Source: an uncultured Verrucomicrobiota bacterium (lineage in GTDB: Bacteria; Verrucomicrobiota; Verrucomicrobiia; Limisphaerales; UBA8199). Taken from it: a DNA stretch of 64,000 nucleotides. Both the position numbers and the translations under genes were made by a program. Below, piece by piece: positions 24,116-39,492 of this stretch. The stretch is from the NCBI GenBank assembly GCA_903873945.1, contig CAIQQM010000291.1:20386-84385 (forward strand), read 5' to 3'. Below the pieces are notes generated by a model. The model saw only the letters and a list, made by a program, of their open reading frames with translations. It did no database searches and was not told where the DNA came from. Numbering within the stretch: the first letter of the stretch is position 1; each line of letters begins with the position of its first letter.

Positions 24116-24150
24116 ACCGTTTGTTAACAATTCGGGATTCAACAATACAT

Positions 24151-25406: not shown

Positions 25407-25979
25407 CTACTTTCGGACTAGCTCCGGATGCTCCATGAAGGCGTAGCAGAGCATATGACAGATGCCCATTTGGGCATCTTCCACGCGGCCATAGTGGGTG
25501 TCGTTGATCATCAGGACACATTCGGCAATTTCGGCCATCCGACCCCGCTTGGCACCCACCAAGGCCACGGTCTGCAATCCGTGGTCTTTGGCCCAGCCCA
25601 GGGCTTTGACGCAGTTGGGGGAGTTGCCGCTCACGCTGATGCCCAGGGCGATGTCGCCCGGTTTTCCGTAGTTTTGCAACTGCCCGACAAACACCTCCTC
25701 ATACGAATAGTCATTGGCCAGAGCCGTCATCCAGCTCACATTGTCGTTCAAAGAAAGCACACGGAACCGTTTACCGACCTTATCAGAGGCACCCTTGCCG
25801 AGGTCCGTAGCAAAGTGAGAAGCATTGGCAGCGCTGCCGCCGTTGCCAAAAACGAAAATCTGGCTGCCCGCGTGAAGAGCGGCGCGCAGTTTCTCAATAA
25901 GTTCGGCCACCGCTTCCACGGGAATCGAGTCATGAGCGGCTTTTTGAGTTCGGATGTAGTCAGAGATCCAGTGCTTCAT
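25407..25979 (-). CDS. gmhA: SIS-domain sedoheptulose-7-phosphate isomerase-like protein
   Basis: IFVFGNGGSAANASHFATDL and ISVSGNSPN match GmhA-type SIS domains. Last gene of the long minus-strand glycan operon. Confidence 0.8.
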   Translation of the reverse strand: MKHWISDYIRTQKAAHDSIPVEAVAELIEKLRAALHAGSQIFVFGNGGSAANASHFATDLGKGASDKVGKRFRVLSLNDNVSWMTALANDYSYEEVFVGQLQNYGKPGDIALGISVSGNSPNCVKALGWAKDHGLQTVALVGAKRGRMAEIAECVLMINDTHYGRVEDAQMGICHMLCYAFMEHPELVRK

Positions 25980-26072
25980 GTAACGGAAGATGGCCCGATC
26001 TACCGGATTTGTCAGGCAATTTCCTTCCCGGCGGTCATTTAACCCCAGCGCAGCAGAGTTTCTCGGAACTGC

Positions 26073-27026
26073 CTACTGATTGTAAAGGAGGCGGAGGGCC
26101 AACTGAGCCAGGGGCCGGGGCAGGAGCTTTTTCGCCACTAATTCCCCGCTGCGGCGACAACACCGCGAGACCAGGAGCGGGGTTAAGAACTGCCGATATT
26201 CGCGCCGACTCATGATGAGACGAAGCACAGGGACACCGAACAACCCGAGTACGGCGCTGTCACGGATGCGAGGGGCGATGTCCGAACAAGCGGGCGAAGA
26301 AAGCTTGTCGAGCAGGTGGGTCAGCACCTGAAAGTGCTCTCCAGTCTTGCGCCCTCGATTGTAGAAGGATGTGGAATAGAGATAAAAATCCGACAATGGT
26401 TCCGGAATGTAGCAGACGCCGTAGCGCAAAGCGGGGACAAAAGCGGCAAACCAGTCGGCATGCCAGCGGAGTTCAGGATGAAAGCGGCCCGCTTCGAGCA
26501 AGGGTTGCCGCTTAAAAACCGCGCTGGCGGTGACAATTAATAGCTTGCCCCGCCGACCTAACCGGACCAATTCCTGCGGGGAAAGGTAGCAGGGTTTCTC
26601 GGCCATGCCCGCGGCCATAAACCACCTCAAGCCGGAGGCCGCATCGTGCCATTCGCTCACCGAACAACTCATCGCCGCCTGAGGATACCGAGCCAGCAAA
26701 GTGAGCGATTTTTCAAACAAACCCGGCTGCACCTCGTCATCTGCCGAGCCAATATATACGTAATCACCACAAGACAATTCCAAGCCCTTGTTAAGATTGG
26801 GCATGACGCCAAGGTTTTTCTCGTTTTGGATAAGCCGGACGAGCGGGTTCTGCGCGGCAATCCGCTTGATGATTTCCACACTGTCGTCGGTTGAAGCATC
26901 ATCCAAAACTAACACTTCTATTGGCCGCAGCGATTGTTTGATAATGGCGGAAAGGGAGGTGTCGAGGTATTTGCCGTGATTGTAGTTGGGGACTACAACC
27001 GAAAGCGCCGGGAGTGAAGAAGACAT
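26073..27026 (-). CDS. glycosyltransferase family 2
   Basis: LSVVVPNYNHGKYL...VLVLDDASTDDS...GSADDEV gives the GT-A DxD architecture. Confidence 0.85.
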   Translation of the reverse strand: MSSSLPALSVVVPNYNHGKYLDTSLSAIIKQSLRPIEVLVLDDASTDDSVEIIKRIAAQNPLVRLIQNEKNLGVMPNLNKGLELSCGDYVYIGSADDEVQPGLFEKSLTLLARYPQAAMSCSVSEWHDAASGLRWFMAAGMAEKPCYLSPQELVRLGRRGKLLIVTASAVFKRQPLLEAGRFHPELRWHADWFAAFVPALRYGVCYIPEPLSDFYLYSTSFYNRGRKTGEHFQVLTHLLDKLSSPACSDIAPRIRDSAVLGLFGVPVLRLIMSRREYRQFLTPLLVSRCCRRSGELVAKKLLPRPLAQLALRLLYNQ

Positions 27027-27084
27027 GTAAGGCTCGCGAACTTAGGTTTCGGGTTAGTGCAGCAAATGAGAGCAGGGGAGAGCC

Positions 27085-28209
27085 TCACACAAACGCCAAA
27101 TGCTCCGGCTCCTTTCCCTGAGGGCGTTGGAGTTCGAGTTTTTCTTTGACCAAATTGTCGAGGGTTTCATTGACACGGTGCTGCAGGCAGAGACTGCCGC
27201 ACATTTTCTGCGCATTAAACTCGGGGCTGGCCAGATAATTTATCACTTCCCAGTACCGGTCACTCTGCCAGATGTCCTTGAAACTTTGCTCGCAGATGTT
27301 CCCGATATGGAACTTCTTGTATTTTTCGTTGAACAACATGCCGCAGGGAGCCACCAGGCCCGAGCCGGAAATCTGTAGCAAAAATGGCGCGCCATAGCAG
27401 CGCTGGTAAGAGCGCGTGCCCTGGGCCTGGATTTTGCTCCACTTGACGGTGCATTGGTAGCTGGAATCGGAATAGGACTCCGCTTCGTGCAAGAGATCGC
27501 TGAGCCGCGAATAGCCGCGGTAATCCACGCCTAGGTCGCCGTTTTCGTTATCGCTGCAATGTTTGATCGCGAGGTAATCGACCCGGAGCTCTTTGCCCAG
27601 CCGCGCCAGGGGGATAATCTGATCGGCGTACTGCGGCATGAGCACCATTTGGAGACCGATCGTGACGCCGAGACGGTCGCGCCGCTTGATCTCGGTCATG
27701 TGCCGGATGTTTTCGATCACCCGATGGAAATATTCCTCCTTCACACCCATGATTTCGGCATAACGCTTGGGTTCGCCAGCGGAAATATTGACGCGCAGAT
27801 AGGTCAAGTGAGGAAGCACTTCCTCCGATTTGCTGCGCGTCAAGACATAAGCGTTGGTGCCACAGGCTATCGAGAGCCCCAGGGCGGATCCCTGCTGGCA
27901 CGACTGCACAAACACAGGCGAAATGGTGCTTTCGCCATCAGAGACAAAGCTGACACCCTTGACGCCGATTTCGGCACAGTCATTCAGAAAGCGGGAGATG
28001 ACCTGTTTATCGATGAAGCTCCGGTCATTCTCCTGGAGCATGGCATAACAATAATGGCATCCGAAATTGCAAGCCCGGGTCAGGGCCATGTCGATGGTAA
28101 TCGGAGCGATGCGCTCGCCGCGCTCCCAGGCGCGCACCCGGTCCTCGTGCCAGGCAATCTTGGTGCCGTCGAGGATCAGCTTCTCCACATGTTCAGTCAT
28201 TCCACTCAT
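27085..28209 (-). CDS. radical SAM enzyme with C-terminal SPASM/twitch-like Cys-rich domain
   Basis: CX3CX2C in ALTRACNFGCHYCYA. C-terminal cysteines lie in QRCYGAP, VAPCGMLF, GNICEQSFKDIW and KMCGSLC. The ATG at 28209 shares its A with the upstream TGA (TGATG). Confidence 0.85.
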   Translation of the reverse strand: MSGMTEHVEKLILDGTKIAWHEDRVRAWERGERIAPITIDMALTRACNFGCHYCYAMLQENDRSFIDKQVISRFLNDCAEIGVKGVSFVSDGESTISPVFVQSCQQGSALGLSIACGTNAYVLTRSKSEEVLPHLTYLRVNISAGEPKRYAEIMGVKEEYFHRVIENIRHMTEIKRRDRLGVTIGLQMVLMPQYADQIIPLARLGKELRVDYLAIKHCSDNENGDLGVDYRGYSRLSDLLHEAESYSDSSYQCTVKWSKIQAQGTRSYQRCYGAPFLLQISGSGLVAPCGMLFNEKYKKFHIGNICEQSFKDIWQSDRYWEVINYLASPEFNAQKMCGSLCLQHRVNETLDNLVKEKLELQRPQGKEPEHLAFV

Positions 28210-29291
28210 CAATTTACTTTCTCGATCTGGCGTCGAAGCTTGCTGAGGTCTTTCTTTTCCTCGCAGAACACTTCGAGCCGGGGATCGCAATGTTCCCGCA
28301 CGAGTCTTTCCAGCGCCAGCGCCAGGCTGCGCTTGGCGGAGATCGGGAGCTGGTCGCCGAACCGAACGGTGACGGCATAGGCATGGTTGCAGTCAACCAC
28401 CTGCACCTCGCCATTCTTGAGCCCAAGCACCGCGCCATGAGCGGCCAAAGCCGCGGTGACGCGCGCTTCCCGTTGGGCGGGGGACAAAGCGGCCCAGGCG
28501 GCGCGGGGGCCCGGGTCGAAAAAGTTTGCCGCCGGGCGGTAGCCAGTGGAAGTCAGATAATCGTTGAAGAGCCGGTTCGCCAACGAGGAGGGAAGCCGAA
28601 ATAGCGGGTCAGCGTTCTGGGGAAGCACGATCCCCGCGATGGGATGGCGCTGGCGCGGGTCACGCAGCGAGAATTCCAGGCGGATGATCGCATGATCTCT
28701 GGCCTCAAGCACGGGCAACCCAACCAGAATCTCACAGAAGGCGTCGAGCGCCGCCAGCATGGGGCCGCGGGCAGTCCCGTCAAAGACAGCGTCGGTGATC
28801 ACATGAGCATCGGTTTGCACCGCCCACGCCAGGGTGCAATGCTCCTCAGTGGCGCGGAGAGGAATTTGATTCTCCCGCACACGCAACTCGCGCTTAAAGC
28901 GCAGATTGGCGAAGCGCGCCCGGAGACGTTGCTGGTAAATGGGCCGCACCGAACGGAACGAGGCGGTTTCCTGCAGGTGAGCGATGGTGAAAACCACCGC
29001 GCCCGGTTCCGCCCGACAACCAACCTCACCCAGGCTGGCCAGTTTCTCCTTGAGCAAGGCAGCGGCTTGGTGCTCGATGATTTTGTTGGCTACCCGCACC
29101 GAGATGGAATCGCTGCCACAAAGCTGGGCGGCTTCGACCAGGTTGCTGAGACTCCGCACCGGGTCGTCATCCGGAACCCAGGTATCCAGCATTTCTTCAG
29201 CCGGCCGGAAGCCCCGGAGGGTGACGTCGAGATTCGTGTTGTACGCCTCAACGAGCTTGTCGTAATCGAAAATCTTTTCGGTTGTCGTCAT
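28209..29291 (-). CDS. hypothetical protein (360 aa), no family recognised; translationally coupled to the radical SAM gene
   Basis: Uninterrupted ORF embedded in the operon, 18 nt after the preceding gene, with its stop overlapping the next start. No motif I can assign. Confidence 0.6.
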   Translation of the reverse strand: MTTTEKIFDYDKLVEAYNTNLDVTLRGFRPAEEMLDTWVPDDDPVRSLSNLVEAAQLCGSDSISVRVANKIIEHQAAALLKEKLASLGEVGCRAEPGAVVFTIAHLQETASFRSVRPIYQQRLRARFANLRFKRELRVRENQIPLRATEEHCTLAWAVQTDAHVITDAVFDGTARGPMLAALDAFCEILVGLPVLEARDHAIIRLEFSLRDPRQRHPIAGIVLPQNADPLFRLPSSLANRLFNDYLTSTGYRPAANFFDPGPRAAWAALSPAQREARVTAALAAHGAVLGLKNGEVQVVDCNHAYAVTVRFGDQLPISAKRSLALALERLVREHCDPRLEVFCEEKKDLSKLRRQIEKVN

Positions 29292-29309
29292 TCGGTTCCA
29301 GCAATTTAG

Positions 29310-30419
29310 CTATTTGGACCCATTATAGTAACAATGGACAGAGTGAATAGTGAAGTCAAGCTCCTCCCGCGTCAGGTGCTGGTGGGCGGGGAGGGTAATA
29401 ATGCTGCGGCAGTCGGCTTCGGCCTTCGGGAAGGTCCCCGGTTTATACCCCAAATAGGCGGCGGCGGGTTGGAGGTGGATGGGTTTGGGATAATGCACCT
29501 TGGCTTCGATGCCGCGCTGCTGCAGGAAGGCCAGGAGGCCGTCGCGGTCCTTGGCGCGCACCATGTACAGGTGATAGACATGCTTGACGCCGGGGCGCCG
29601 GAGGGGGGGCTTGACGAACTCCGGAATGTCGGCCCAGGCGGCGTCGTAATAGGCTGCGTTCTTGATCCGGGTTTGGGTGATGAAATCCAGTTGTGGCAGG
29701 AGACGGTTGGCCACGACGGCTTGCAGGGTGTCCAGGCGGCAGTTGATGCCGAAAAACTCGATTTCGTCGCGGTTGACGAGTCCATGATTGCGATAGAGCC
29801 TGAGTTTGCGGGCCAGTTCCGCCGAGCGGGTGGTGACCACGCCTCCGTCAGCCCAAACATTCAAGTTCTTGAGCGGATGCAAGCTGTAGGCGGCAGCCTC
29901 ACCCCAGGAACCCATGGGGCGGCCGTTGAATTCGCCGCCAATCGACTGGCAGGAATCCTCGAAAATCATGAGGCCGCGTTTGTCGGCGATGGCCTTGATC
30001 CGGTCGAGGTCGGGGATATTGCCACTGAAGGTTACCGTGACGATGGCTTTGGTCCGGGGCGTAATGGCCGCTTCGATCTTCTCGGGATCAATCATGAGAC
30101 CGTCTTCACTGTCCACGAGCACGGGACGCGCGCCGGTGGCGACGATGGCGCCGACGGTGGCGTAGAAGGTCATGGTGGTGGTGATCACTTCATCGCCCGG
30201 ACCGATGCCGGAGAGTTTCATCGGCAGGATCAACGCATCCGTTCCGGTGCCTACGCCGATGGCGTGCGGCATGCCGGCGCGTTTGGCAAAACGCTCTTCG
30301 AACTCCGTCAGCGGCTTGCCCAAAGTGAAATCTCCGCTTTTCACCAGCGCCCGGATATCGTGCAGATAATCTTCGACGTCAGCGAATTGGCGGTCCAGAT
30401 AGGAGAAAGGGACTTTCAT
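29310..30419 (-). CDS. DegT/DnrJ/EryC1/StrS-family PLP-dependent sugar aminotransferase
   Basis: MKVPFSYLDRQF... with the PLP-lysine motif YSLHPLKNLNVWADGG. I used the start at 30419 (M21 of the ORF-track translation). Confidence 0.9.
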   Translation of the reverse strand: MKVPFSYLDRQFADVEDYLHDIRALVKSGDFTLGKPLTEFEERFAKRAGMPHAIGVGTGTDALILPMKLSGIGPGDEVITTTMTFYATVGAIVATGARPVLVDSEDGLMIDPEKIEAAITPRTKAIVTVTFSGNIPDLDRIKAIADKRGLMIFEDSCQSIGGEFNGRPMGSWGEAAAYSLHPLKNLNVWADGGVVTTRSAELARKLRLYRNHGLVNRDEIEFFGINCRLDTLQAVVANRLLPQLDFITQTRIKNAAYYDAAWADIPEFVKPPLRRPGVKHVYHLYMVRAKDRDGLLAFLQQRGIEAKVHYPKPIHLQPAAAYLGYKPGTFPKAEADCRSIITLPAHQHLTREELDFTIHSVHCYYNGSK

Positions 30420-30432
30420 GGGATAATGGGAT

Positions 30433-31545
30433 TTAGTTCGTTTTATAAAAATCGAGGATGGCCTGAGCAACTGCGTCAATTTGCTGGCCGCTGAGTTCGG
30501 AATAGATGGGGAGGCTGAGAATTCGCCCAGCCAGACGTTCGCAAACCGGGAAGTCTCCTTCGCGGTGGCCCAACCGCCGGCCGACGGTCATCAAATGGAT
30601 GGGGACGGGGTAATGGATGGCTGTTCCGATGCCTTGCGTTTGCAGGTACTGGACCAACTCATCCCGCTTGTCGGCCTGCACTACGAACGTGTGATAGACA
30701 CAGAATTCGCCGGGGCCATCGACGGGGCATTGCAGGCGCCGGCAGGCAGCCAAACGCAGACGATAGCGTTCGGCATTGGCCCGGCGGGAGGCGGTGATAG
30801 CCTCCAGGTGCCGAAGCTTGACCCGGAGTATGGCGGCCTGGATGGAATCAAGACGGGACACCATGCTGAATTCAAGACAATCATTCCGACTGGGCTGGCC
30901 ATGGTTGCGCAGCAGCCGCGCGCGCTGCCAAACCGATTCGTCATCGGTAACCAGCATTCCGCCATCGCCGCAGGCGTTCAGATTCTTCAACGGGTGGAGG
31001 CTGAAGCAGCCGATCCGGCTGAGTGAGCCCACCGGCTTTCCGTGCAAAGCCGCACCAACCGCCTGGGCCGCATCTTCGATCAGTTCCACCCCGCGCTCTT
31101 GCGCGAGGGCTGACAACTCTTTCATCGCCGCAGGTTTGCCGGTCAGATGCACTGGAATAATGGCCCTGGTGCGCGGAGTAATGGCGCGGGCCACGGCTTC
31201 CGGGTCCAAATTCAAATCATCCCGCACATCGGCAAACTTCGGCACGGCTCCGGCCAGGGCAATGCAACTGGCGCTGGCGAGATAAGAATTGGGAGCCGTA
31301 ATCACTTCATCGCCCGGCCCGATGCCGAGGCACCGAAGCGCGAGGATCAAAGCGTCGGTTCCTGAATTGAGCCCCACGGCGTAGCGGGCGCCGCAAAAAA
31401 CGGCAAACTCCTGCTCAAAGCGCTCGGTTTCCTCGCCCAGAATAAACTGGCCCGAATCGAGCACCCCCGCGACAGCCTGGAGCATCTGCTCGCGCTGGGG
31501 GTGTTGCCGGTGGGACAGGTTTACGTAAGGAATGGATGTGCTCAT
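30433..31545 (-). CDS. DegT/DnrJ/EryC1/StrS-family PLP-dependent sugar aminotransferase (second paralog)
   Basis: IPYVNLSHRQ... with the PLP-lysine motif FSLHPLKNLNACGDGG. I used the start at 31545 (M28 of the ORF-track translation). Confidence 0.9.
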   Translation of the reverse strand: MSTSIPYVNLSHRQHPQREQMLQAVAGVLDSGQFILGEETERFEQEFAVFCGARYAVGLNSGTDALILALRCLGIGPGDEVITAPNSYLASASCIALAGAVPKFADVRDDLNLDPEAVARAITPRTRAIIPVHLTGKPAAMKELSALAQERGVELIEDAAQAVGAALHGKPVGSLSRIGCFSLHPLKNLNACGDGGMLVTDDESVWQRARLLRNHGQPSRNDCLEFSMVSRLDSIQAAILRVKLRHLEAITASRRANAERYRLRLAACRRLQCPVDGPGEFCVYHTFVVQADKRDELVQYLQTQGIGTAIHYPVPIHLMTVGRRLGHREGDFPVCERLAGRILSLPIYSELSGQQIDAVAQAILDFYKTN

Positions 31546-31558
31546 TGCAAACCAGGAT

Positions 31559-32635
31559 TTAGAAAGGACCAGGAAACTCAAGGTATGGGACATCCACAGG
31601 ACAGGGCCGCTTGGGAAACTTATCAACCAAACTGGCTCCGCGCCCGACGATCCGCGCGGCCGCCAGAAATAAGTCGGGGGCGGCCGGATAATAAACCGCC
31701 GCCAGCGCGGAAGAGCTGGGGGAGGCGCAATCCGGGTAAGTCACGCGCACGGGTGGAGCATTCAATTTCAACCCCGCCTCGCCAACCCGGGCGACGATCT
31801 CCGCCGCAAATCCGCACTGACGGGTATCGTCATCCGCCACCACCAATCCCCGGGTCTTTTTCACAGAGTTGGCAATCGTCTCGAAGTCCAGCGGATTCAA
31901 GCATCGCACGTCCACAACCTCCATTTCCACCCCCGCGTGGGCGGAGGCAAAATCCGCAGCCCGCAAGGCTTCAATCACCATGTGGGAACTGGCCACTACC
32001 GTCACATCCGAACCGCTCCTCGCGACCAGACACTCGCCCAAAGGAGTGCGGTGATAACCCTCCGGCACAGGTCCGCGCATATTGTGCAGCCAACGATGCT
32101 CCAGAAAAATCACAGGGTTGTCGTCCTCCACGCTGGCGACCAGCAGGCCTTTGGCATCCGCCGGCGAGGCCGGGGCAACCACTTTTAGACCGGGTATATG
32201 CGCAAACCAAGAGCTTAGACTCTGGGCGTGCTGGGGCCCCTGCCCCCAGCCCCGGCCGATGATCATTCGGATCACAATCGGGATCGTGCCGCCGCGGCCG
32301 TCAAACATGTAATACCATTTGGCCGCCTGGTTGACGATTTGTTCAAGGCTCAAGAGCGCAAAATCGACGCGTTGATGGGTAAGGATGGGGCGCATTCCGC
32401 CCAAGGCCGCGCCAATGACCAGACCGGTCAGAGCGTTTTCGGACAACGGCACATCCAGAGCCCGATCGGCGCCGAACTCGGCCGCCAGCTCGGCGGTGGT
32501 TCCGAAAATCCCTTTCGGGTCGGGCACTCCCAGGCCAATCACAAAAGCACGCGGGTCGCGGGCCAGGCAGAGAGCGGTGCCTTCGCGGATGGCCTCGGCG
32601 AAGGTCAGCTCTCGTGTTGGGGATTTGTCGCTCAT
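31559..32635 (-). CDS. ThDP-dependent 2-oxoacid dehydrogenase E1 component, beta-subunit-like (transketolase Pyr/C domains)
   Basis: TFAEAIREGTALCLARDPRAFVIGLGV..., DVPLSENALTGLVIGAALGGMRPI, FLEHRWLH. The start overlaps the E1alpha stop (ATGA at 32632-32635). Confidence 0.85.
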   Translation of the reverse strand: MSDKSPTRELTFAEAIREGTALCLARDPRAFVIGLGVPDPKGIFGTTAELAAEFGADRALDVPLSENALTGLVIGAALGGMRPILTHQRVDFALLSLEQIVNQAAKWYYMFDGRGGTIPIVIRMIIGRGWGQGPQHAQSLSSWFAHIPGLKVVAPASPADAKGLLVASVEDDNPVIFLEHRWLHNMRGPVPEGYHRTPLGECLVARSGSDVTVVASSHMVIEALRAADFASAHAGVEMEVVDVRCLNPLDFETIANSVKKTRGLVVADDDTRQCGFAAEIVARVGEAGLKLNAPPVRVTYPDCASPSSSALAAVYYPAAPDLFLAAARIVGRGASLVDKFPKRPCPVDVPYLEFPGPF

Positions 32636-33660
32636 GGCGCAAACACTCCCCTCTGCAAGGTCGCCGCGTCCGGCATGGGACTGGAGCGGACATTTTCAAT
32701 GACCGCATCGATTTCCCGGATATATCGTTTTTCGGCCGCTGTCATTTCCGGGTCGAGTGCCGGGCTCAATGCCAGCAAGCGCGTTCGCGCGACAGCTAAG
32801 GGGCAACGCTCCGCCCAATGCTTGATCTGTTCCGCCTCGCGGTAGCCTAGGTGGTCATCCTGTCCGGGGCCGCAGTGTTCGTAATAGCGCCAGGTGGAAA
32901 ACTCGACCACACACGGCCGGCCCGGGTCTTGGCGCATGGCGGAAAGCGCCTGGCCGGTCAGAGCGAAGACTTCTTCAACATCGTTGCCATGCCCTGAGAA
33001 ATAGAGGCTCCCGTGGCTTCGCACGTAACTTCCAAATTCAAAATCCGGGGCGCGCCGCAAACTGAGGGGCGTGTAAACCGAGAAGCCATTGTTTTCGCAG
33101 ATGAAAAGCATCGGCACGCGCAACACGCACGCAAGGTTGAGCGTTTCGGTGAAAACCCCCTCTTCGGTTGCGCCTTCGCCGAAAAATGCGGTGGTCAGCT
33201 CATCGCCACCTCTCCGTTTGTCGGCTAACGCCAGCCCCAAGGCGATGGGCATAGTGCTGCCCACGATCGGCACCGCGCCCCAAAAACCGGCTTCCCGGTC
33301 GATCAGATGCATCGAGCCGCCGCGGCCGCCGCAGCAGCCGGCTTCCCGGCCATAGAGTTCGGCGAGCATGGCGCGGATATTGCCGCCTTTGGCCAGATAG
33401 TGGCCGTGAGACCGGTGCGCGCTCATCACTTTGTCCTGCTTGCGCAAATGAGCGCAAACTCCGACCGCCACAGCTTCCTGGCCGATGCTCAGGTGGACCG
33501 GACAGCGCATCTCTTTCTCACCGTAACGCTCCGCGATGCGCCGCTCGATAACGCGGATGCGCAGCATCTCCAGATACAGGCGCCAGAGCCGATCGCATAT
33601 TTGGCTTGAGGTTTCCGCCCGGGGCGGCTGGCTCAGAGGCACCGGTGAGTTGGCCATCAT
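32632..33660 (-). CDS. ThDP-dependent 2-oxoacid dehydrogenase E1 component, alpha-subunit-like
   Basis: LSIGQEAVAVGV, HRSHGHYLAKG, GGRGGSMH. The ThDP motif reads FFGEGATEEG...ENNGFSV, so GDG is GEG here. Confidence 0.85.
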   Translation of the reverse strand: MMANSPVPLSQPPRAETSSQICDRLWRLYLEMLRIRVIERRIAERYGEKEMRCPVHLSIGQEAVAVGVCAHLRKQDKVMSAHRSHGHYLAKGGNIRAMLAELYGREAGCCGGRGGSMHLIDREAGFWGAVPIVGSTMPIALGLALADKRRGGDELTTAFFGEGATEEGVFTETLNLACVLRVPMLFICENNGFSVYTPLSLRRAPDFEFGSYVRSHGSLYFSGHGNDVEEVFALTGQALSAMRQDPGRPCVVEFSTWRYYEHCGPGQDDHLGYREAEQIKHWAERCPLAVARTRLLALSPALDPEMTAAEKRYIREIDAVIENVRSSPMPDAATLQRGVFAP

Positions 33661-33676
33661 TGTGCGGAGTTGAGCC

Positions 33677-34696
33677 TTATCGAATGCGGAGTTCCTGCAT
33701 CCGCTTGATATTCGAAAAGAGCGTATTGGTCATCGGGTTGGGTATTTTCCCGGCTCGGTAGGCGACGGCAATGCTGCTGATGGCATCCTCGATGGTGAAC
33801 TTTGGCTCGAACCCGAGCACGTTCTTGATCTTCTCAGAGTTGACATGGTAGGAGCGATTGTCGTTCGTCGGCGTGTACTCCAATTCGATGACCGGATCAT
33901 CGAGCACTTTGACCACCATTTTCGCAATGTCTTCGATCGAGCGATTCTGGAAGCCGACATTGAAGGCCTCGCGGTCAATTTTGGCGCCGGGTGCTTGCAG
34001 GAATAGATGATAGGCCCGCACCATATCGTCGATGTGGAGGTTGGGGCGGAGCTGTTTGCCGCCAAAGATGCGGATCTTACGGTTCACGAGCGCGTTGATC
34101 GTGAGAATATTAACGCTGAGGTCAAGCCGCAGGCGCGGTGCGTAGCCGCAGATAGTCGCCGGACGCACGATGACGCGTTCCATGCCATTGGCATTGGAGT
34201 GGGCCAACAGATCCCGCTCGCAATCCAGCTTGAAACGCGAGTAATCCGTCAACGGCTCAGGCGCAGCATCCTCGCGGACATTCGGGTCCTCCTTAACTCC
34301 GTAAATGCTGGAAGAGCTGGCGTAGACGAACCGCTTGACGCCCTGGTCGATGGAACTCTGCAGCAACCCGGCAAACGCGTCGTAGTTGATCGATTTGCCA
34401 AGCGAAGGATCGAGTTCGAAACTCGGGTCGTTGGAAATGCATGCCAGGTGGATAACGGCGTCGATGCCCTTGAGCGCCGCTTTCAGGCGTGTACTGTTGC
34501 GGATGTCCAACTCGATCCGTTCAAGCTGTGGATTCCGGTTGGCGTCGCCATAGACGTCGCGGCCGTACCAAAACAGATCGACGACTTTGACCTCGTAGCC
34601 TTGCTTGAGTAGAGAGGGCACGAGGGCGCTGCCGACGTAGCCGCCACCCCCAGTGACCAGGACTGATTTGAATTCATGAGGATGCTGCTTGTTCAT
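33677..34696 (-). CDS. NAD-dependent sugar epimerase/dehydratase (extended SDR)
   Basis: VLVTGGGGYVGSAL (GxxGxxG), the ASSSSIYG serine, and the YSRFK (YxxxK) catalytic dyad. Confidence 0.9.
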   Translation of the reverse strand: MNKQHPHEFKSVLVTGGGGYVGSALVPSLLKQGYEVKVVDLFWYGRDVYGDANRNPQLERIELDIRNSTRLKAALKGIDAVIHLACISNDPSFELDPSLGKSINYDAFAGLLQSSIDQGVKRFVYASSSSIYGVKEDPNVREDAAPEPLTDYSRFKLDCERDLLAHSNANGMERVIVRPATICGYAPRLRLDLSVNILTINALVNRKIRIFGGKQLRPNLHIDDMVRAYHLFLQAPGAKIDREAFNVGFQNRSIEDIAKMVVKVLDDPVIELEYTPTNDNRSYHVNSEKIKNVLGFEPKFTIEDAISSIAVAYRAGKIPNPMTNTLFSNIKRMQELRIR

Positions 34697-34703
34697 AAAA
34701 ACG

Positions 34704-36233
34704 TTACTTCATCAAAGACGTGATATGCCGGAACAGGCTTGTCGGCTCGATGAAGCTGCGGTGGCCCATAATAGTGCAGGCTTCCGCTCCGACGACGTTC
34801 GCGATAAAACCGAGCACCTGGGGCGGCACGCTCAAGGCCGCGCAAGGGGCTGTAAGGCCCAGCACGGCATCTCCCGCGCCGACGCGGTCCACGACGCGGA
34901 TGGCAAACGCGGGCACGTGGAAAGTGCCTTGTTCACGGTCATGAACCAAGCAACCGGAGGCGCCGCGCGTCACGAGGAAGTTTTTCGTTGAGATTTTACG
35001 GGCGATACCTTCAGCCAGGCCCCGCAGGTCGCCGCTGGCTTTGCGGGCGTCGAGGCGGACTTCGGGATCCCCGATAGAGACAAAATCGGCGCGCGGGTAT
35101 TTTGAGATGGTGTTGAAGCCTTTGTTGCCGGCATTGGCCTGAGTGTTGACGGCCAGGAATTTGGATTTCTTGCAGACTAATTCCACGCCCCGGTCAGTCA
35201 TCAAGCCGTGGCCATAATCGGCGACCACCACCAGGTCAAATTGTGGGGCCAGCCGTTCCAGCGCGGAGCAGAACTCCGCCTCCGCCTCGGCTGGCATGGC
35301 GTCATTGCGCATCACATAGACCTCAAAGAGCTTGGCTGAGAGATATTCCTCGAGAAACCGGCGTTTGATGATCGTCGGCGCACCCGCCACCCGGACGAAT
35401 TGAGGCGTGATGTTCTTATTCAGTTTGGAGAGGATGAAATCCTCGCACGAATTGATCTGCCCAACCGAACTGAGAAGGGTGACATTGTCGCAAAAGTTCG
35501 AGATGTGATTGGCAATGGCCGGCGCGCCGCCGGCGTATTGCTCGGTTCGATTATGCAGGGCGGCCAGCACCGGTTCCTTGCCGGATTTGCCCATCACCGA
35601 GCAAAACTGGTATTCGTCGATAATGGTTTCCCCCACAATGAGCACCTTAAGTTTGCGAATGGCCTGAAGGTAGCCGACGATCTCTTCCGGAGTGTGGCGC
35701 ATGCGGAACTGCTCGAGGAACGCCTTGGTTTCCGTGGAAAAAACGTCCGTAAACCGGTTAATGAGGGCCGACGCGCTAAAGGTTTCCTCATCGGTGAGCA
35801 CGAGTTGCCCGCCAGTCGCTTTGACGGCATTCTCCTCTTTGTCGATGGCATCGGTATGGTCGCGTTTTCCCGCCTCGCGCACGATGCCTTTCACATAGAA
35901 CGAAGGCCGGAGCCGTTCTATGGTTTCCACCGCCGTAGGCCATTCATTGATGGCGACAAAATCGACACAGGCAAGGGAAGCCAGGGCTTCCGCACGCAAA
36001 CGTTCGGGAAAGGCGGGGCGATGGGGTCCTTTGTTGACGAACCGGTCGGGGGTAATCGTCACGACGAGCAAATCGCCTAACTTGCGGGCCGCTTCAAGAT
36101 GCTTGATGTGTCCGATATGCAACAGGTCAAAAACTCCGTGGCAGTGCACGGCCCTCTTCCCTTCGGCTCGAAGTACTGCCAGGGTTTTGGCCAGGTCCTC
36201 GATCGGTCTTATCTTGCGCTCGGTCGTGTCCAT
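34704..36233 (-). CDS. bifunctional sugar-phosphate nucleotidyltransferase (N) / PfkB-family sugar kinase (C), HldE-like with reversed domain order
   Basis: The N-terminal domain has HCHGVFDLLHIGHIKHLEAARK (HxGH) and FYVKG. The C-terminal domain has VNTQANAGN and VDRVGAGDAVLG (PfkB signature). I chose the ATG at 36233 (MDTTERK); the 116 upstream codons look non-coding. Confidence 0.8.
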   Translation of the reverse strand: MDTTERKIRPIEDLAKTLAVLRAEGKRAVHCHGVFDLLHIGHIKHLEAARKLGDLLVVTITPDRFVNKGPHRPAFPERLRAEALASLACVDFVAINEWPTAVETIERLRPSFYVKGIVREAGKRDHTDAIDKEENAVKATGGQLVLTDEETFSASALINRFTDVFSTETKAFLEQFRMRHTPEEIVGYLQAIRKLKVLIVGETIIDEYQFCSVMGKSGKEPVLAALHNRTEQYAGGAPAIANHISNFCDNVTLLSSVGQINSCEDFILSKLNKNITPQFVRVAGAPTIIKRRFLEEYLSAKLFEVYVMRNDAMPAEAEAEFCSALERLAPQFDLVVVADYGHGLMTDRGVELVCKKSKFLAVNTQANAGNKGFNTISKYPRADFVSIGDPEVRLDARKASGDLRGLAEGIARKISTKNFLVTRGASGCLVHDREQGTFHVPAFAIRVVDRVGAGDAVLGLTAPCAALSVPPQVLGFIANVVGAEACTIMGHRSFIEPTSLFRHITSLMK

Positions 36234-39359: not shown

Positions 39360-39492
39360 CCTTTCCGGGGCGTTGCGATTCAATTTTCCCTATCTTTGAC
39401 TTCCTGTGGCGAGCGGCAGACAGGGTCGGAGCACGCGCTTAGCAGTCCGTGACGCTCCCCCGCCGCAAGGGAGACGCGGGTTACGTATTCTT

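What the first reader, a model, noticed from the sequence alone, without database searches (positions are those of the whole stretch)
25407..36233. Ten-gene tightly coupled operon for an unassigned nucleotide-sugar: heptose-type activation + ThDP E1 pair + two aminotransferases + radical SAM/SPASM
Ten co-directional genes run from 36233 down to 25407. The gaps between them are 7, 16, -4, 13, 13, 18, -1, 58 and 93 nt. In order they are:
- a nucleotidyltransferase-PfkB kinase fusion
- an extended SDR
- E1alpha
- E1beta
- DegT aminotransferase
- DegT aminotransferase
- a 360-aa unknown protein
- a radical SAM/SPASM enzyme
- a GT2
- a GmhA-like SIS isomerase
Each family is familiar, but I cannot map the set onto any characterised route. 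I compared it with ADP-/GDP-heptose and its known capsule modifications, bacillosamine, legionaminic/pseudaminic acids, desosamine-type deoxyamino sugars, and yersiniose. The content predicts a nucleotide-activated higher sugar that is oxidised (SDR), C-branched or chain-extended (ThDP E1), aminated once or twice, and further rearranged by radical chemistry. The adjacent GT2 would then transfer it, and the divergently transcribed Wzx-like flippase (36516) would export it. This is my best candidate for a previously undescribed system in the window.
Basis: inference. Interest (0 to 1): 0.8.

Follow-up and report, generated by a model that had tools for sequence, protein, structure and literature searches.

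The report
Conserved unassigned heptose-type amino-sugar operon
This is a real ten-gene operon for an unidentified activated sugar of the cell surface; the same gene set recurs in about ten bacterial phyla and part of it lies in the virulence-linked O-antigen locus of the Q-fever agent Coxiella burnetii, yet nobody knows what sugar it makes.

Summary
Ten minus-strand genes occupy 25407-36233 with exactly the stated spacings and domain contents.

No protein reaches an NCBIfam equivalog cut-off, and I found no characterised pathway that matches.

New findings:
- The cassette is co-conserved, with shuffled gene order, in loci labelled Verrucomicrobiota, Eremiobacterota, Acidobacteriota, Chloroflexota, Omnitrophota, Bdellovibrionota, SAR324, Alpha- and Gammaproteobacteria. 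One carrier is cultured: an Azospirillum oryzae plasmid.
- The tightest module is E1alpha-E1beta, the unknown protein and the radical SAM enzyme.
- The radical SAM enzyme is 68-91% identical across phyla. Its best sequence and fold match is DesII, which acts on an NDP-amino-sugar.
- The 360-aa unknown contains a degenerate IscU-like domain. Its family has about 1000 clusters at 50% identity and no Pfam model.
The Coxiella burnetii phase-I LPS locus has the reversed HldE-like CBU0678 (essential for O-antigen, function unknown), an E1 pair and two DegT genes. PDB 3UWC is about 60% identical to one window aminotransferase.
- An L-2-hydroxyglutarate oxidase gene flanks the operon. That fits a Cj1427-type, alpha-ketoglutarate-recycling NDP-heptose C4-dehydrogenase role for the SDR.

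The product is still unknown. I rate it a new variant of a known kind, interest about 0.68.

The parts
34704..36233 (-). Bifunctional nucleotidyltransferase (N-terminal) / PfkB sugar kinase (C-terminal), 509 aa. It is HldE-like but with the domain order reversed.
   Evidence: Pfam finds CTP_transf_like at residues 32-116 and PfkB at 196-493. NCBIfam gives rfaE_dom_II 98.7 bits (cut-off 181.5), rfaE_dom_I 113.7 (cut-off 345) and HldE 153.6 (cut-off 521). The HxGH motif is at residue 39 and the GAGD aspartate at residue 455. That is the same residue number as the predicted active-site D455 of Coxiella CBU0678, which also has reversed domains (PMC5843353). Homologues are 41-81% identical in 14 related loci.
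33677..34696 (-). Extended SDR, 339 aa. It is an epimerase/oxidoreductase type and is proposed to be the NDP-heptose C4 (keto-forming) dehydrogenase.
   Evidence: Pfam Epimerase E 2e-41; no NCBIfam equivalog is reached. It has YSRFK (YxxxK) at residue 152, and SSSSIYG in place of the TDE/TSE motif of 4,6-dehydratases. The best PDB match is 6VO6, 'putative sugar-nucleotide epimerase/dehydratase' (E 3.8e-33, aligned over 309 residues, roughly one third identical by eye). Homologues are 45-80% identical in related loci.
32632..33660 (-). ThDP-dependent E1 alpha-type subunit, 342 aa.
   Evidence: Pfam E1_dh E 1.8e-51. The PDH E1alpha equivalog scores 249.6 bits, below its 393.85 cut-off. The ThDP motif is GEG-x25-NN at residue 161. 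No E2 or E3 gene lies in the operon. In locus L001 this subunit is fused to E1beta as a 707-aa protein.
31559..32635 (-). E1 beta-type subunit, 358 aa. Its gene overlaps the E1alpha gene by 4 nt.
   Evidence: Pfam Transket_pyr plus Transketolase_C. The PDH E1beta family scores 265.6 bits, below its 321 cut-off. Homologues are 45-80% identical in related loci, including Coxiella L024 at 45-46%.
30433..31545 (-). DegT-family sugar aminotransferase 1, 370 aa.
   Evidence: Pfam DegT E 2e-109. The PLP lysine is retained (SLHPLK, residue 182). The best PDB matches are DesV 2OGA (E 2.7e-87), QdtB and WbpE, all of which I recall as C3-aminotransferases. It is 41-44% identical to the first DegT of the Coxiella-type loci.
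29310..30419 (-). DegT-family sugar aminotransferase 2, 369 aa.
   Evidence: Pfam DegT E 6e-99. The PLP lysine is retained (residue 179). PDB 3UWC matches at E 2.4e-139 over 365 residues. 3UWC corresponds to the Coxiella burnetii DegT protein P0194 (99% identity). tblastn identity to the Coxiella locus is 57-58%.
28209..29291 (-). 360-aa protein of an unnamed family. It has a central degenerate IscU/SufU-like domain flanked by N- and C-terminal alpha/beta parts, and is the partner of the radical SAM enzyme.
   Evidence: It has no Pfam, NCBIfam or PDB sequence hit. The AF2 model has pLDDT 83. The best Foldseek matches are IscU/SufU (E 4e-5, TM on target 0.64-0.71 over about 135 residues). hhalign aligns IscU Cys37 and Cys63 with non-conserved T148 and R174. 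Invariant residues include C186, H200, E206 and R210. A profile search finds 1033 clusters at 50% identity. The stop codon overlaps the radical SAM start by 1 nt here and by 4 nt in L001 and L002.
27085..28209 (-). Radical SAM enzyme with a C-terminal SPASM/Twitch-like domain, 374 aa. It is the most conserved protein of the cassette.
   Evidence: Pfam Radical_SAM plus SPASM. It is 68-91% identical across phyla, with mean column identity 80%. Invariant cysteines are C47/C51/C54 plus C218, C271, C289, C337 and C341. The best PDB sequence hit is DesII (E 6e-5). The best fold hit is DesII 8HZV/8HZY (E 1e-13, TM on query 0.60-0.68); BlsE, viperin and BtrN also match. No NCBIfam equivalog is reached; the top hit is 80.7 bits against a cut-off of 380.
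26073..27026 (-). Family-2 glycosyltransferase, 317 aa. It is probably the dedicated transferase for the product.
   Evidence: Pfam Glycos_transf_2 E 1.6e-26. It is co-conserved next to the cassette at 38-61% identity in L001, L005-L008, L013 and L014.
25407..25979 (-). GmhA-like SIS sugar-phosphate isomerase, 190 aa.
   Evidence: Pfam SIS_2. The gmhA equivalog scores 118.5 bits, below its 209.45 cut-off. Homologues are 31-46% identical inside the cassette in L010, L011, L013, L016, L018, L019, L021 and L023. SIS genes were also called in L005 and in the P0143 locus.
24121..25350 (+). L-2-hydroxyglutarate oxidase. It is a possible accessory that would recycle L-2-hydroxyglutarate to alpha-ketoglutarate for the SDR and aminotransferase steps. 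It lies convergent to the operon's last gene.
   Evidence: The NCBIfam equivalog NF008726 scores 543.9 bits against a cut-off of 299. A 60%-identical gene lies directly upstream of, and co-directional with, the reversed-HldE gene in Verrucomicrobiia locus L008. A 40%-identical gene lies near the DegT pair in Coxiella-like locus L026.
36516..37784 (+). Wzx/MurJ-like multi-span flippase, divergent from the operon with a 282-nt spacer.
   Evidence: Pfam Polysacc_synt 40.5 bits and MurJ 29.4 bits.
37834..38925 (+). GT2 glycosyltransferase (locus context).
   Evidence: Pfam Glycos_transf_2 E 4.7e-26.
39406..40740 (+). NDP-sugar C-methyltransferase type protein (locus context; it may belong to a second sugar pathway).
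   Evidence: Pfam Methyltransf_13 plus Methyltransf_14. It is 41% identical to a gene in L007, 37% in L012, and 29% to the Coxiella C-methyltransferase in L024.
41230..42216 (-). GT2 glycosyltransferase (locus context).
   Evidence: Pfam Glycos_transf_2.
42177..44951 (+). Large YfhO-like membrane protein (locus context).
   Evidence: Pfam YfhO 30.6 bits. A YfhO gene also sits next to the E1 / unknown protein / radical SAM module in SAR324 locus L022.
45086..46057 (-). GT2 glycosyltransferase (locus context).
   Evidence: Pfam Glycos_transf_2. It is 58% identical to a gene in L007.
12409..12954 (-). GmhB-like HAD-IIIA phosphatase. It is a candidate to supply, in trans, the 7-phosphatase step that the operon lacks.
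   Evidence: The NCBIfam histidinol-ppas domain scores 105 bits (cut-off 84). The heptose 1,7-bisphosphate 7-phosphatase equivalog scores 98.6 bits, below its 178 cut-off. tblastn with my recalled E. coli GmhB sequence gives 30% identity.

Best explanation
The ten genes form a self-contained, horizontally mobile cassette. I propose that it makes a nucleotide-activated, heptose-derived, keto-, amino- and C2-modified sugar and hands it to a dedicated GT2 for a surface glycan (O-antigen/LPS-like), with export through the neighbouring Wzx/YfhO machinery.

Proposed route. Only the domain content, the conservation and the homologies are shown; every chemical step is inferred.
1. The GmhA-like isomerase converts sedoheptulose-7-P to a heptose-7-P.
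2. The PfkB half of the reversed HldE-like protein phosphorylates O1. A GmhB-like phosphatase encoded elsewhere (for example 12409-12954) removes the 7-phosphate. The N-terminal nucleotidyltransferase half then makes the NDP-heptose.
3. The extended SDR lacks the acid/base pair of 4,6-dehydratases and most resembles PDB 6VO6, which I believe is the C. jejuni GDP-heptose C4-dehydrogenase Cj1427. It would oxidise the sugar to a keto-sugar and re-oxidise its bound NADH with alpha-ketoglutarate. The adjacent L-2-hydroxyglutarate oxidase would return the L-2-hydroxyglutarate to alpha-ketoglutarate.
4. One DegT aminotransferase aminates the ketone.
5. The radical SAM enzyme works with its IscU-fold partner. 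It would perform a DesII-like radical step (deamination, dehydration or dehydrogenation) that relocates or creates a carbonyl.
6. The E2-less E1alpha/beta pair would decarboxylate pyruvate (or another 2-oxo acid) and add the acyl-anion equivalent to a sugar carbonyl. The result is a two-carbon branch or a chain extension.
7. The second DegT aminates the remaining ketone.

The order of steps 4-7 is not fixed by the data.

The invariant heart of the system is E1alpha/beta, the IscU-like protein and the radical SAM enzyme. The aminotransferases are optional decorations, absent in some lineages.
For: - Domain content and spacing are confirmed.
- No equivalog cut-off is reached for ADP-heptose, PDH, PseC/ArnB/DesI or any named radical SAM family, so none of the proteins is a housekeeping copy.
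- The window separately encodes a canonical stand-alone RfaE-II adenylyltransferase (181.0 bits against a 181.5 cut-off), a GT9 heptosyltransferase and a GmhB-like phosphatase.
- The gene set is co-conserved despite rearranged order. This holds in loci labelled Verrucomicrobiota, Eremiobacterota, Bryobacteraceae, Chloroflexota, Omnitrophota, Bdellovibrionota, SAR324, Rhodospirillales, Xanthobacteraceae and Gammaproteobacteria, and on an Azospirillum oryzae plasmid.
- E1alpha and E1beta are fused in L001, and no E2 or E3 lies in any cassette.
- The minimal module in SAR324 is E1alpha, E1beta, the unknown protein, the radical SAM enzyme and a NUDIX gene, next to YfhO.
- The radical SAM enzyme's best sequence and fold matches are DesII. 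BlsE, viperin and BtrN, which I recall as acting on sugars or nucleotides, also score.
- A 39%-identical paralogue in Solidesulfovibrio sits in another glycan cluster with a transketolase-C (E1beta-like) gene, methyltransferases and a protein annotated as MptE-like.
- Aminotransferase 1 is closest to DesV, QdtB and WbpE. Both aminotransferases keep the PLP lysine, so they are transaminases rather than dehydratases.
- The SDR's best solved relative is 6VO6. Cj1427 uses alpha-ketoglutarate and yields L-2-hydroxyglutarate (PMC10680097). An L-2-hydroxyglutarate oxidase equivalog adjoins the operon here, in L008 and in L026.
- A glycan destination is supported by the co-conserved GT2, by the flanking Wzx, GT2 and YfhO genes, and by Coxiella genetics. 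Truncating the reversed-HldE homologue CBU0678 abolishes phase-I O-antigen, and complementation restores it (PMC5843353).
- The Coxiella locus also has the DegT pair (57-58% and 41-42% identity) and an E1 pair (39-46%).
Against: - No product is known, and none of the steps has been tested biochemically in any organism.
- The operon encodes no 7-phosphatase, so the nature of the activated species is uncertain (NDP-heptose, NDP-heptose-7-P or another sugar).
- The SIS and kinase/nucleotidyltransferase scores are far below the heptose equivalog cut-offs, so the substrate may not be sedoheptulose-7-P at all.
- The similarity of the radical SAM enzyme to DesII is weak: 14-15% identity, phmmer E 6e-5, and TIGR04426 at 31 bits against a cut-off of 450. 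Peptide-modifying SPASM enzymes (PqqE, SuiB, SkfB, anSME) score almost as well.
- Variants exist without aminotransferases (L009, L012, L021, L022) and without E1 (L017, L020). A single linear pathway therefore cannot describe all family members.
- In the Eremiobacterota loci no glycosyltransferase lies within the 10 kb examined upstream.
- The identification of 6VO6 as Cj1427 rests on my memory of the annotation string and was not verified.
- The link to L-2-hydroxyglutarate oxidase is adjacency only.
- Coxiella-type loci (L024-L026) lack the IscU-like and radical SAM genes within the 21 kb seen.
Confidence: 0.6

Rival explanations
1. The cassette makes a known rare sugar by a route that has simply not been assigned. 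One candidate is an unidentified constituent of the Coxiella phase-I O-antigen. Another is a bradyrhizose-type carbocycle-fused or branched higher sugar: the E1 pair would add a C2 unit to a 4-keto-heptose, and the radical SAM enzyme would close or rearrange the carbon skeleton.
For: Coxiella carries homologues of five of the ten genes in the region deleted in avirulent phase-II strains, and the role of CBU0678 is unknown. Bradyrhizose biosynthetic genes are unknown, but a Tn5 hit lies in an 11-gene sugar-modification cluster that includes an SDR (PMC4743980). Photosynthetic Bradyrhizobium strains specifically carry a 'sugar kinase/cytidylyltransferase' (BRADO5164), a phosphoheptose isomerase (BRADO5167) and a dTDP-glucose-dehydratase-like gene (BRADO5168) side by side (PMC3899966). 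A Xanthobacteraceae MAG (L020) has the unknown protein, the radical SAM enzyme, the kinase/nucleotidyltransferase and an SDR.
Against: From my knowledge, bradyrhizose has ten carbons and no amino groups, whereas this cassette has two transaminases and a C2 donor. L020 lacks E1 genes within 10 kb. I could not read the Bradyrhizobium or the remaining Coxiella (CBU0679-0687) genes with these tools. Virenose is currently assigned to the gmd/fcl/C-methyltransferase genes, not to this gene set (PMC13252051).
Confidence: 0.15
2. The radical SAM/SPASM enzyme and the 360-aa protein form a protein- or peptide-modification pair. The 360-aa protein would be a substrate, or a scaffold like an RRE (RiPP recognition element). 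The pair would merely be co-located with sugar genes.
For: SPASM enzymes typically modify peptides or proteins. PqqE, SuiB, SkfB and anSME are among the top fold matches. The 360-aa protein has a strongly conserved C-terminal tail (…CDPRLEVFCEEKKDLSKLRR) and is translationally coupled to the radical SAM gene.
Against: No precursor peptide, protease or RiPP transporter is conserved nearby. The pair is always embedded among NDP-sugar genes across about ten phyla. Only five C-terminal cysteines are invariant rather than the seven I expect of a full SPASM domain. The best matches are to DesII, which acts on an NDP-sugar. A distant paralogue also lies in a glycan cluster.
Confidence: 0.08
3. The cassette makes a diffusible secondary metabolite, such as an aminoglycoside- or heptosamine-nucleoside-like compound, rather than a cell-envelope glycan.
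For: From my knowledge, heptose activation combined with aminotransferases and radical SAM chemistry recalls septacidin, hygromycin B and aminoglycoside pathways. In the Eremiobacterota loci the ten genes sit next to housekeeping genes, with no glycosyltransferase in the 10 kb read.
Against: A GT2 is co-conserved in eight loci. Flippase, ABC-transporter, YfhO, GT4 and O-antigen-type genes flank most copies. Coxiella genetics ties the homologous kinase/nucleotidyltransferase to LPS. No resistance, regulatory or aglycone genes are conserved.
Confidence: 0.07
4. The set is a chance juxtaposition of ordinary ADP-heptose genes, a pyruvate or acetoin dehydrogenase E1 and unrelated enzymes.
For: Each family is common, and the E1 subunits' best named hits are PDH E1. 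One Coxiella paper treated the E1 homologues as fatty-acid-related pyruvate dehydrogenases (PMC5423948).
Against: All scores fall below the equivalog cut-offs. There is no E2 or E3. Separate canonical heptose genes are present in the window. The gene set travels together across about ten phyla with gene order reshuffled.
Confidence: 0.02

Closest known systems
Coxiella burnetii phase-I LPS / O-antigen region (cbu0674-cbu0698, deleted in Nine Mile phase II)
   Same: It has a reversed-domain HldE-like kinase/nucleotidyltransferase (CBU0678) whose predicted active-site Asp is at residue 455, exactly as in the window protein. SDR genes lie next to it, and a phosphoheptose isomerase (CBU0674) is nearby. 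It has an E1alpha/E1beta pair at 39-46% identity and two adjacent DegT genes at 41-42% and 57-58% identity, one of them solved as PDB 3UWC. It also has a sugar C-methyltransferase and GT2 genes. The cluster was acquired horizontally.
   Different: Gene order differs, and the genes are spread over about 20 kb and mixed with the gmd/fcl genes currently assigned to virenose, sulfation genes and an ABC transporter. No IscU-like or radical SAM gene lies in the 21 kb I could read; CBU0679-0687 could not be examined. The biochemical function is unknown there too, so this relative does not explain the cassette.
Desosamine branch DesI / DesII / DesV (Streptomyces venezuelae)
   Same: The pattern is two DegT aminotransferases bracketing a radical SAM enzyme that acts on an NDP-amino-sugar. 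DesII is the best sequence and fold match of the radical SAM enzyme, and DesV is the best match of aminotransferase 1.
   Different: The DesII equivalog scores 31 bits against a cut-off of 450. From my knowledge, DesII has no auxiliary-cluster domain and no IscU-like partner. The desosamine substrate is a dTDP-4,6-dideoxyhexose made by a 4,6-dehydratase, and the window SDR lacks the dehydratase residues. The desosamine pathway has no ThDP enzyme and no heptose-type activation.
Campylobacter jejuni GDP-heptose modification pathways (Cj1427 C4-dehydrogenase and partners)
   Same: A heptose nucleotide is oxidised at C4 by an SDR that recycles NADH with alpha-ketoglutarate to give L-2-hydroxyglutarate (PMC10680097). 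The window SDR's best solved relative is 6VO6, which I believe is Cj1427, and an L-2-hydroxyglutarate oxidase gene adjoins the operon.
   Different: From my knowledge, C. jejuni activates the heptose with a GHMP kinase and a GDP-transferase and follows with cupin epimerases and C4-reductases. It has no E1 pair and no radical SAM enzyme; the only DegT-like enzyme is a C3-dehydratase in one serotype.
ThDP-dependent two-carbon branching of NDP-keto-sugars (YerE in yersiniose; AviB1/AviB2 E1-type pair in avilamycin eurekanate) - from my own knowledge, not tested here
   Same: A ThDP enzyme without E2/E3 partners is embedded among NDP-sugar genes. The AviB1/B2 precedent is specifically an E1alpha/E1beta pair that installs an acetyl branch.
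   Different: I had no sequences for comparison. Those pathways use hexoses activated by RmlA-type enzymes, and they have no radical SAM enzyme or IscU-like protein.
Canonical ADP-L-glycero-D-manno-heptose pathway (GmhA, HldE, GmhB, HldD)
   Same: The same three families provide isomerisation, anomeric phosphorylation and nucleotidyl transfer.
   Different: The domain order is reversed. All scores are far below the equivalog cut-offs. The operon has no GmhB or HldD. The window carries separate canonical heptose genes.

Membership tests
ADP-heptose pathway (GmhA/HldE/GmhB/HldD) | The isomerase reaches the GmhA equivalog score. | tested here: not met
   TIGR00441 scores 118.5 bits against a cut-off of 209.45.
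ADP-heptose pathway (GmhA/HldE/GmhB/HldD) | HldE architecture (kinase N-terminal, adenylyltransferase C-terminal) and the HldE equivalog score. | tested here: not met
   The order is reversed: CTP_transf_like at residues 32-116 and PfkB at 196-493. NF008454 scores 153.6 bits against a cut-off of 521.
ADP-heptose pathway (GmhA/HldE/GmhB/HldD) | A GmhB 7-phosphatase is available. | tested here: inconclusive
   None lies in the operon or in most related cassettes. A GmhB-like HAD protein at 12409-12954 scores 98.6 bits, below its 178 cut-off.
2-oxo-acid dehydrogenase complex E1 | The E1alpha and E1beta subunits reach the PDH equivalog or subfamily scores. | tested here: not met
   They score 249.6 bits (cut-off 393.85) and 265.6 bits (cut-off 321).
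2-oxo-acid dehydrogenase complex E1 | Partner E2 (lipoyl acyltransferase) and E3 genes are present. | tested here: not met
   No E2 or E3 lies in the window operon or in any cassette. SAR324 locus L022 has an unrelated fused E1 plus E2 about 8-10 kb away.
2-oxo-acid dehydrogenase complex E1 | A ThDP-binding motif is present. | tested here: met
   GEG-x25-NN at residue 161 of E1alpha. E1beta keeps the sequence …DVPLSEN…, which I recall corresponds to the cofactor-activating Glu motif.
Desosamine-type DesI/DesII/DesV relay | The radical SAM enzyme is a DesII equivalog. | tested here: not met
   TIGR04426 scores 31.4 bits against a cut-off of 450. DesII is nevertheless the top PDB hit by sequence (E 6e-5) and by fold (E 1e-13, TM on query up to 0.68).
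Desosamine-type DesI/DesII/DesV relay | Two lysine-containing DegT transaminases are present. | tested here: met
   SLHPLK is present in both. DesV is the best PDB match of aminotransferase 1.
Desosamine-type DesI/DesII/DesV relay | An NDP-hexose 4,6-dehydratase supplies the 4-keto-6-deoxy substrate. | tested here: not met
   The SDR has SSSSIYG instead of the TDE/TSE dehydratase motif. The dTDP-glucose dehydratase equivalog scores 83 bits against a cut-off of 365.
SPASM peptide/protein maturases | A full seven-cysteine SPASM motif (two auxiliary clusters) and a precursor peptide or RRE (RiPP recognition element) partner. | tested here: not met
   Only five C-terminal cysteines are invariant: C218, C271, C289, C337 and C341. 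No precursor, RRE, protease or transporter is conserved.
IscU/SufU Fe-S scaffold | An IscU fold. | tested here: met
   Foldseek gives probability 1.0 and TM on target 0.64-0.71 to IscU structures over about 135 residues.
IscU/SufU Fe-S scaffold | The three cluster-ligating cysteines (IscU C37, C63, C106) are present. | tested here: not met
   hhalign puts C37 and C63 opposite the non-conserved T148 and R174. The only invariant Cys is C186. The alignment is weak (probability 17.6%) and did not reach C106.
Coxiella burnetii phase-I O-antigen gene set | A reversed-domain HldE-like protein with the kinase Asp at residue 455. | tested here: met
   The GAGD Asp is at residue 455 of the window protein. 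D455 of CBU0678 and its reversed domains are described in PMC5843353. No direct sequence alignment was possible.
Coxiella burnetii phase-I O-antigen gene set | An adjacent DegT pair and an E1alpha/beta pair are present. | tested here: met
   In L024, aminotransferase 1 matches at 41-42%, aminotransferase 2 at 57-58%, E1alpha at 39-40% and E1beta at 45-46%.
Coxiella burnetii phase-I O-antigen gene set | The IscU-like protein and the radical SAM enzyme are present. | tested here: inconclusive
   They are absent from the 21 kb of L024 and from L025/L026. CBU0679-0687 lie outside the DNA I could fetch.

The most novel reading that the evidence does not exclude
The E2-less E1 pair, the ligand-less IscU-fold protein and the hyper-conserved radical SAM enzyme, fed by a reversed HldE, would define a widespread and so far undescribed type of nucleotide-sugar chemistry. 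In this reading, ThDP carboligation is coupled to a radical rearrangement on a heptose. The product would be a C-branched, chain-extended or carbocycle-fused (amino-)nonose-class sugar that has not yet been recognised in glycan analyses. The same logic would underlie the unexplained half of the Coxiella burnetii virulence O-antigen locus, and possibly bradyrhizose-type sugars.
Probability: 0.3. Interest if true: 0.85.

Novelty: new variant of a known kind. Interest (0 to 1): 0.68.

Why it matters
Three reasons.

1. Two large protein families have no assigned function and no curated model, and they always travel with NDP-sugar genes. One is the radical SAM enzyme, 68-91% identical across phyla. 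The other is the IscU-fold partner, with about 1000 clusters at 50% identity. Solving one cassette would annotate many genes across environmental and host-associated bacteria.

2. [quoted passage not shown] The role of CBU0678 and of the E1 and DegT genes in the phase-variation region has stayed open since the deleted region was described in 2002 (Hoover et al., cited) and was still called unclear in June 2026 (PMC13252051). This cassette, and the cultured soil isolate Azospirillum oryzae KACC 14407 that carries it complete on a plasmid, offer a way to work out that chemistry without using Coxiella itself.

3. If the E1 pair really performs carboligation on a heptose nucleotide, and the radical SAM enzyme rearranges it, the product would extend the known repertoire of bacterial higher-carbon sugars. 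It would also supply new enzymes for glycan engineering.

Tried and rejected
- NCBIfam and Pfam on all ten proteins gave no equivalog. I therefore rejected ordinary ADP-heptose, PDH, PseC/ArnB/WecE/DesI, and the named radical SAM families (W-cofactor maturase, NirJ, PqqE, SkfB, MoaA, viperin, DesII) as identities.
- PDB sequence searches gave nothing for the 360-aa protein and only weak DesII, SkfB and PqqE hits for the radical SAM enzyme.
- Literature searches combining radical SAM, heptose, thiamine, aminotransferase, higher-carbon sugar, DegT, E1, PfkB and O-antigen returned no paper describing such a pathway.
- Searches for the PDB codes 3UWC and 6VO6/6VO8 found nothing useful. The Cj1427 structure paper (PMC7509852) is not held, so the identity of 6VO6 remains unverified.
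- I tried to read the rest of the Coxiella region (CBU0679-0687) through papers and got no annotations. Only CBU0686 is described, as a 2-oxoacid-dehydrogenase paralogue.
- I pursued the bradyrhizose idea as far as the literature allowed. The gene contents of the candidate cluster are not published in text form, so it remains speculation.
- The listing of cluster members on ten NCBI-sourced radical SAM homologues gave no organism names.
- The promoter/terminator scan was uninformative.
- A canonical Fe-S scaffold role for the 360-aa protein seems unlikely, because the IscU ligand positions are not conserved.
- The peptide-maturase reading was considered and down-weighted (see rival explanations).

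Full report
**Observation.**
Recomputed spacings are 7, 16, -4, 13, 13, 18, -1, 58 and 93 nt.

Pfam confirms each assignment:
- cytidylyltransferase-like domain followed by PfkB kinase (509 aa)
- extended SDR
- E1_dh
- Transket_pyr plus Transketolase_C
- two DegT aminotransferases
- a 360-aa protein with no family
- Radical_SAM plus SPASM
- GT2
- SIS_2

A consensus promoter/terminator scan shows nothing above background inside the block. Co-transcription is therefore inferred from spacing and synteny only.

**Setting.**
On the right flank lie a Wzx/MurJ-like flippase, three more GT2 genes, a TylC3-type sugar C-methyltransferase and a YfhO-like membrane protein. On the left flank lie an L-2-hydroxyglutarate oxidase equivalog, a GT9 heptosyltransferase and a stand-alone RfaE-domain-II adenylyltransferase. 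A GmhB-like phosphatase lies 12 kb away. The organism therefore appears to have a canonical ADP-heptose/core route that is separate from the operon.

**None of the ten proteins is a known enzyme.**
Against NCBIfam, every best hit is far below its curated cut-off:

| Family | Score (bits) | Cut-off (bits) |
|---|---|---|
| GmhA | 118.5 | 209 |
| HldE | 153.6 | 521 |
| PDH E1alpha | 249.6 | 394 |
| PDH E1beta | 265.6 | 321 |
| PseC (two aminotransferases) | 249.6 and 219.4 | 423.5 |
| DesII | 31 | 450 |
| Best radical SAM family | 81 | 380 |

**Co-conservation.**
The 360-aa protein has only 73 word-detectable relatives. A profile of those relatives finds 1033 clusters at 50% identity in 1.84 billion representatives, nearly all full-length.

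I fetched loci around relatives of this protein and of the radical SAM enzyme. I then mapped the window proteins onto them. The same set, in varying order, appears in loci labelled:
- Verrucomicrobiota (L001, L006-L008)
- Eremiobacterota (L010, L011)
- Bryobacteraceae (L013, L014)
- Chloroflexota (L016)
- Gammaproteobacteria (L019)
- Rhodospirillales (L018, and the P0143 locus)
- a JGI contig (L021)
- the 318-kb plasmid of the cultured Azospirillum oryzae KACC 14407 (L023)

On that plasmid PGAP gives only generic names.

Identities across these loci are 68-91% for the radical SAM enzyme, 41-81% for the kinase/nucleotidyltransferase, about 45-80% for the SDR, E1 and aminotransferases, and only 26-37% for the 360-aa protein outside Verrucomicrobiota.

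The variants are informative:
- SAR324 (L022) has only E1alpha, E1beta, the 360-aa protein, the radical SAM enzyme and a NUDIX gene, next to YfhO.
- L009 and L012 lack aminotransferases.
- L017 and L020 lack E1.
- L001 fuses E1alpha to E1beta.

The invariant heart is thus the E1 pair, the 360-aa protein and the radical SAM enzyme. The aminotransferases are optional. A GT2 orthologous to 26073-27026 accompanies the cassette in eight loci.

**The 360-aa protein.**
The AF2 model is confident (pLDDT 83). Foldseek against the PDB returns only IscU/SufU scaffolds, covering a central stretch of about 135 residues. Profile alignment to E. coli IscU is weak (probability 17.6%). It places the ligand cysteines C37 and C63 opposite non-conserved T148 and R174. 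The family's only invariant cysteine is C186. It therefore has an IscU fold without the canonical Fe-S site. Its stop codon overlaps the radical SAM start codon by 1-4 nt here and in L001 and L002. This suggests a complex with the radical SAM enzyme, but that is an inference.

**The radical SAM enzyme.**
Mean column identity across phyla is 80%. Besides CX3CX2C (C47/51/54), five cysteines are invariant (C218, C271, C289, C337, C341). That number fits one auxiliary cluster rather than the two of a full SPASM domain; this too is an inference. Its best PDB match is DesII, both by sequence (E 6e-5) and by fold on a pLDDT-77 model (E 1e-13, TM 0.60-0.68). As I recall, DesII is the TDP-4-amino-4,6-dideoxyglucose deaminase. 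Other enzymes that I recall as acting on sugars or nucleotides (BlsE, viperin, BtrN) also match. Peptide maturases (PqqE, SuiB, SkfB, anSME) are not far behind. A 39%-identical paralogue on a Solidesulfovibrio plasmid sits in another glycan cluster, with an E1beta-like gene, methyltransferases and a gene annotated as MptE-like. This again points to sugar substrates.

**The aminotransferases and the SDR.**
Both DegT proteins keep the PLP lysine. They are closest to DesV, QdtB and WbpE, which I recall as C3-aminotransferases.

The SDR has a YxxxK motif but lacks the acidic pair of 4,6-dehydratases. Its best solved relative is 6VO6. I believe 6VO6 is C. jejuni Cj1427, the GDP-heptose C4-dehydrogenase. 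I could not verify this identification.

Cj1427 re-oxidises its bound NADH with alpha-ketoglutarate and yields L-2-hydroxyglutarate (PMC10680097). An L-2-hydroxyglutarate oxidase equivalog abuts the operon in the window. A similar gene lies immediately upstream and co-directional in L008, and another lies near the DegT pair in the Coxiella-like L026. This supports an alpha-ketoglutarate / L-2-hydroxyglutarate / glutamate cycle serving the oxidation and transamination steps. The support is adjacency only.

**The Coxiella connection.**
Aminotransferase 2 matches PDB 3UWC at E 2e-139. That chain is a Coxiella burnetii DegT protein (P0194). In the Coxiella chromosome it sits in this order:
- a second DegT
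- a GT2
- an E1alpha/E1beta pair
- the C-methyltransferase
- a further GT2
- gmd and fcl

This is the O-antigen region deleted in avirulent phase-II strains.

The literature describes CBU0678, a few genes away, as an HldE homologue with an 'unconventional, reversed domain arrangement' and a predicted active-site D455. Truncating it abolishes phase-I LPS, and complementation restores it. 'The function of CBU0678 is unknown' (PMC5843353). Its role was still called unclear in June 2026 (PMC13252051).

The window protein has its GAGD aspartate at residue 455 as well. [quoted passage not shown] That fits the Azospirillum-type cassette.

The profile of the 360-aa protein finds nothing in the Coxiella-type loci I could read. 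CBU0679-0687 were out of reach.

**Mechanism.**
The best-supported reading has eight steps:
1. GmhA-like isomerisation.
2. Anomeric phosphorylation and nucleotidyl transfer by the reversed HldE, with a phosphatase supplied in trans.
3. SDR oxidation to a keto-sugar.
4. Transamination.
5. A DesII-like radical step by the radical SAM enzyme and its IscU-fold partner.
6. ThDP-dependent addition of a two-carbon unit by the E2-less E1 pair.
7. A second transamination.
8. Transfer by the co-conserved GT2 into a Wzx/YfhO-exported glycan.

What is shown: domain content, conservation, gene coupling and homologies. What is inferred: every chemical step and their order.

I give about 0.6 to the general statement (a dedicated NDP-sugar cassette for a surface glycan, with a heptose-type entry). 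I give perhaps 0.2-0.3 to the specific order of steps. The rivals are an unassigned route to a known rare sugar, a protein/peptide maturase pair, a secondary metabolite, and a chance cluster. They are listed with their tests.

**Novelty.**
The kind of system, an NDP-sugar modification operon in an O-antigen-type locus, is known. So are ThDP branching and radical SAM sugar chemistry taken separately. What is new:
- their obligatory combination with an IscU-fold partner and a reversed HldE
- the breadth of distribution
- the complete absence of functional annotation

Hence my rating: new variant of a known kind.

It matters because it would annotate two large orphan families. It would also make a long-open question about the Coxiella virulence O-antigen testable in a cultured soil bacterium.

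Noticed in passing
window 24121-25350 (+); L008 1628-2785; L026 3827-5068: An L-2-hydroxyglutarate oxidase equivalog (543.9 bits against a cut-off of 299) is adjacent to the sugar operon. It recurs next to the cassette in another Verrucomicrobiia genome and near the DegT pair of a Coxiella-like genome. This may mark alpha-ketoglutarate-recycling SDR dehydrogenases of the Cj1427/WbpB type.
   Followed up: partly
window 22440-22961 (+) and 22757-24115 (+): A stand-alone RfaE-domain-II heptose-1-P adenylyltransferase (181.0 bits against a cut-off of 181.5) is followed by a GT9 heptosyltransferase. The maximal ORFs overlap by about 200 nt, so the GT9 start is probably further downstream. No separate RfaE-domain-I kinase was seen in the parts of the window I annotated (about 12-49 kb).
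   Followed up: partly
window 12409-12954 (-): A GmhB-like HAD-IIIA phosphatase lies about 12 kb from the operon. It is the only candidate found for the missing heptose 7-phosphatase step.
   Followed up: partly
window 39406-40740 (+): A TylC3-type NDP-sugar C-methyltransferase (Methyltransf_13/14) has no NCBIfam hit. Homologues lie near the cassette in L007 (41%) and L012 (37%), and in the Coxiella locus (29%), where that gene is assigned to virenose C-methylation.
   Followed up: partly
L022 11128-11535; L023 17133-17708; P0143 locus: A small NUDIX hydrolase gene lies directly downstream of the radical SAM gene in SAR324, Azospirillum and a Rhodospirillaceae contig, but not in the window. 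It might cleave the nucleotide from the modified sugar.
   Followed up: no
L021 1-427, 14264-15817, 18922-20920: The JGI contig that carries the cassette also has a second E1alpha/beta pair. That pair is clustered with a DegT, two SDRs, a GHMP kinase and B12-binding radical SAM enzymes. It looks like a second ThDP plus radical SAM sugar cluster of a different type.
   Followed up: no
L024 3248-7415: The Coxiella O-antigen locus next to the DegT pair encodes an inositol-monophosphatase-family protein, a fused ATP-sulfurylase/APS kinase and a sulfotransferase-like protein. This suggests a sulfated glycan component.
   Followed up: no
L016 9926-11039; L018 9980-11084; L020 9962-11019: In three MAG loci the gene for the 360-aa protein is split into two ORFs. 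This could be a frameshift, an assembly error or a pseudogene.
   Followed up: no
L006 (record title 'uncultured Bifidobacteriaceae bacterium'): The contig carries a cassette 73-89% identical to the window and to Verrucomicrobiota MAGs. The taxonomic label is probably a binning error.
   Followed up: no
window 46948-48933 (+), 46073-46906 (-), 14310-17612 (+): Housekeeping neighbours that bound the glycan locus: a biosynthetic arginine decarboxylase, a NIF3/DUF34 protein and an 1100-aa SNF2-family helicase.
   Followed up: no
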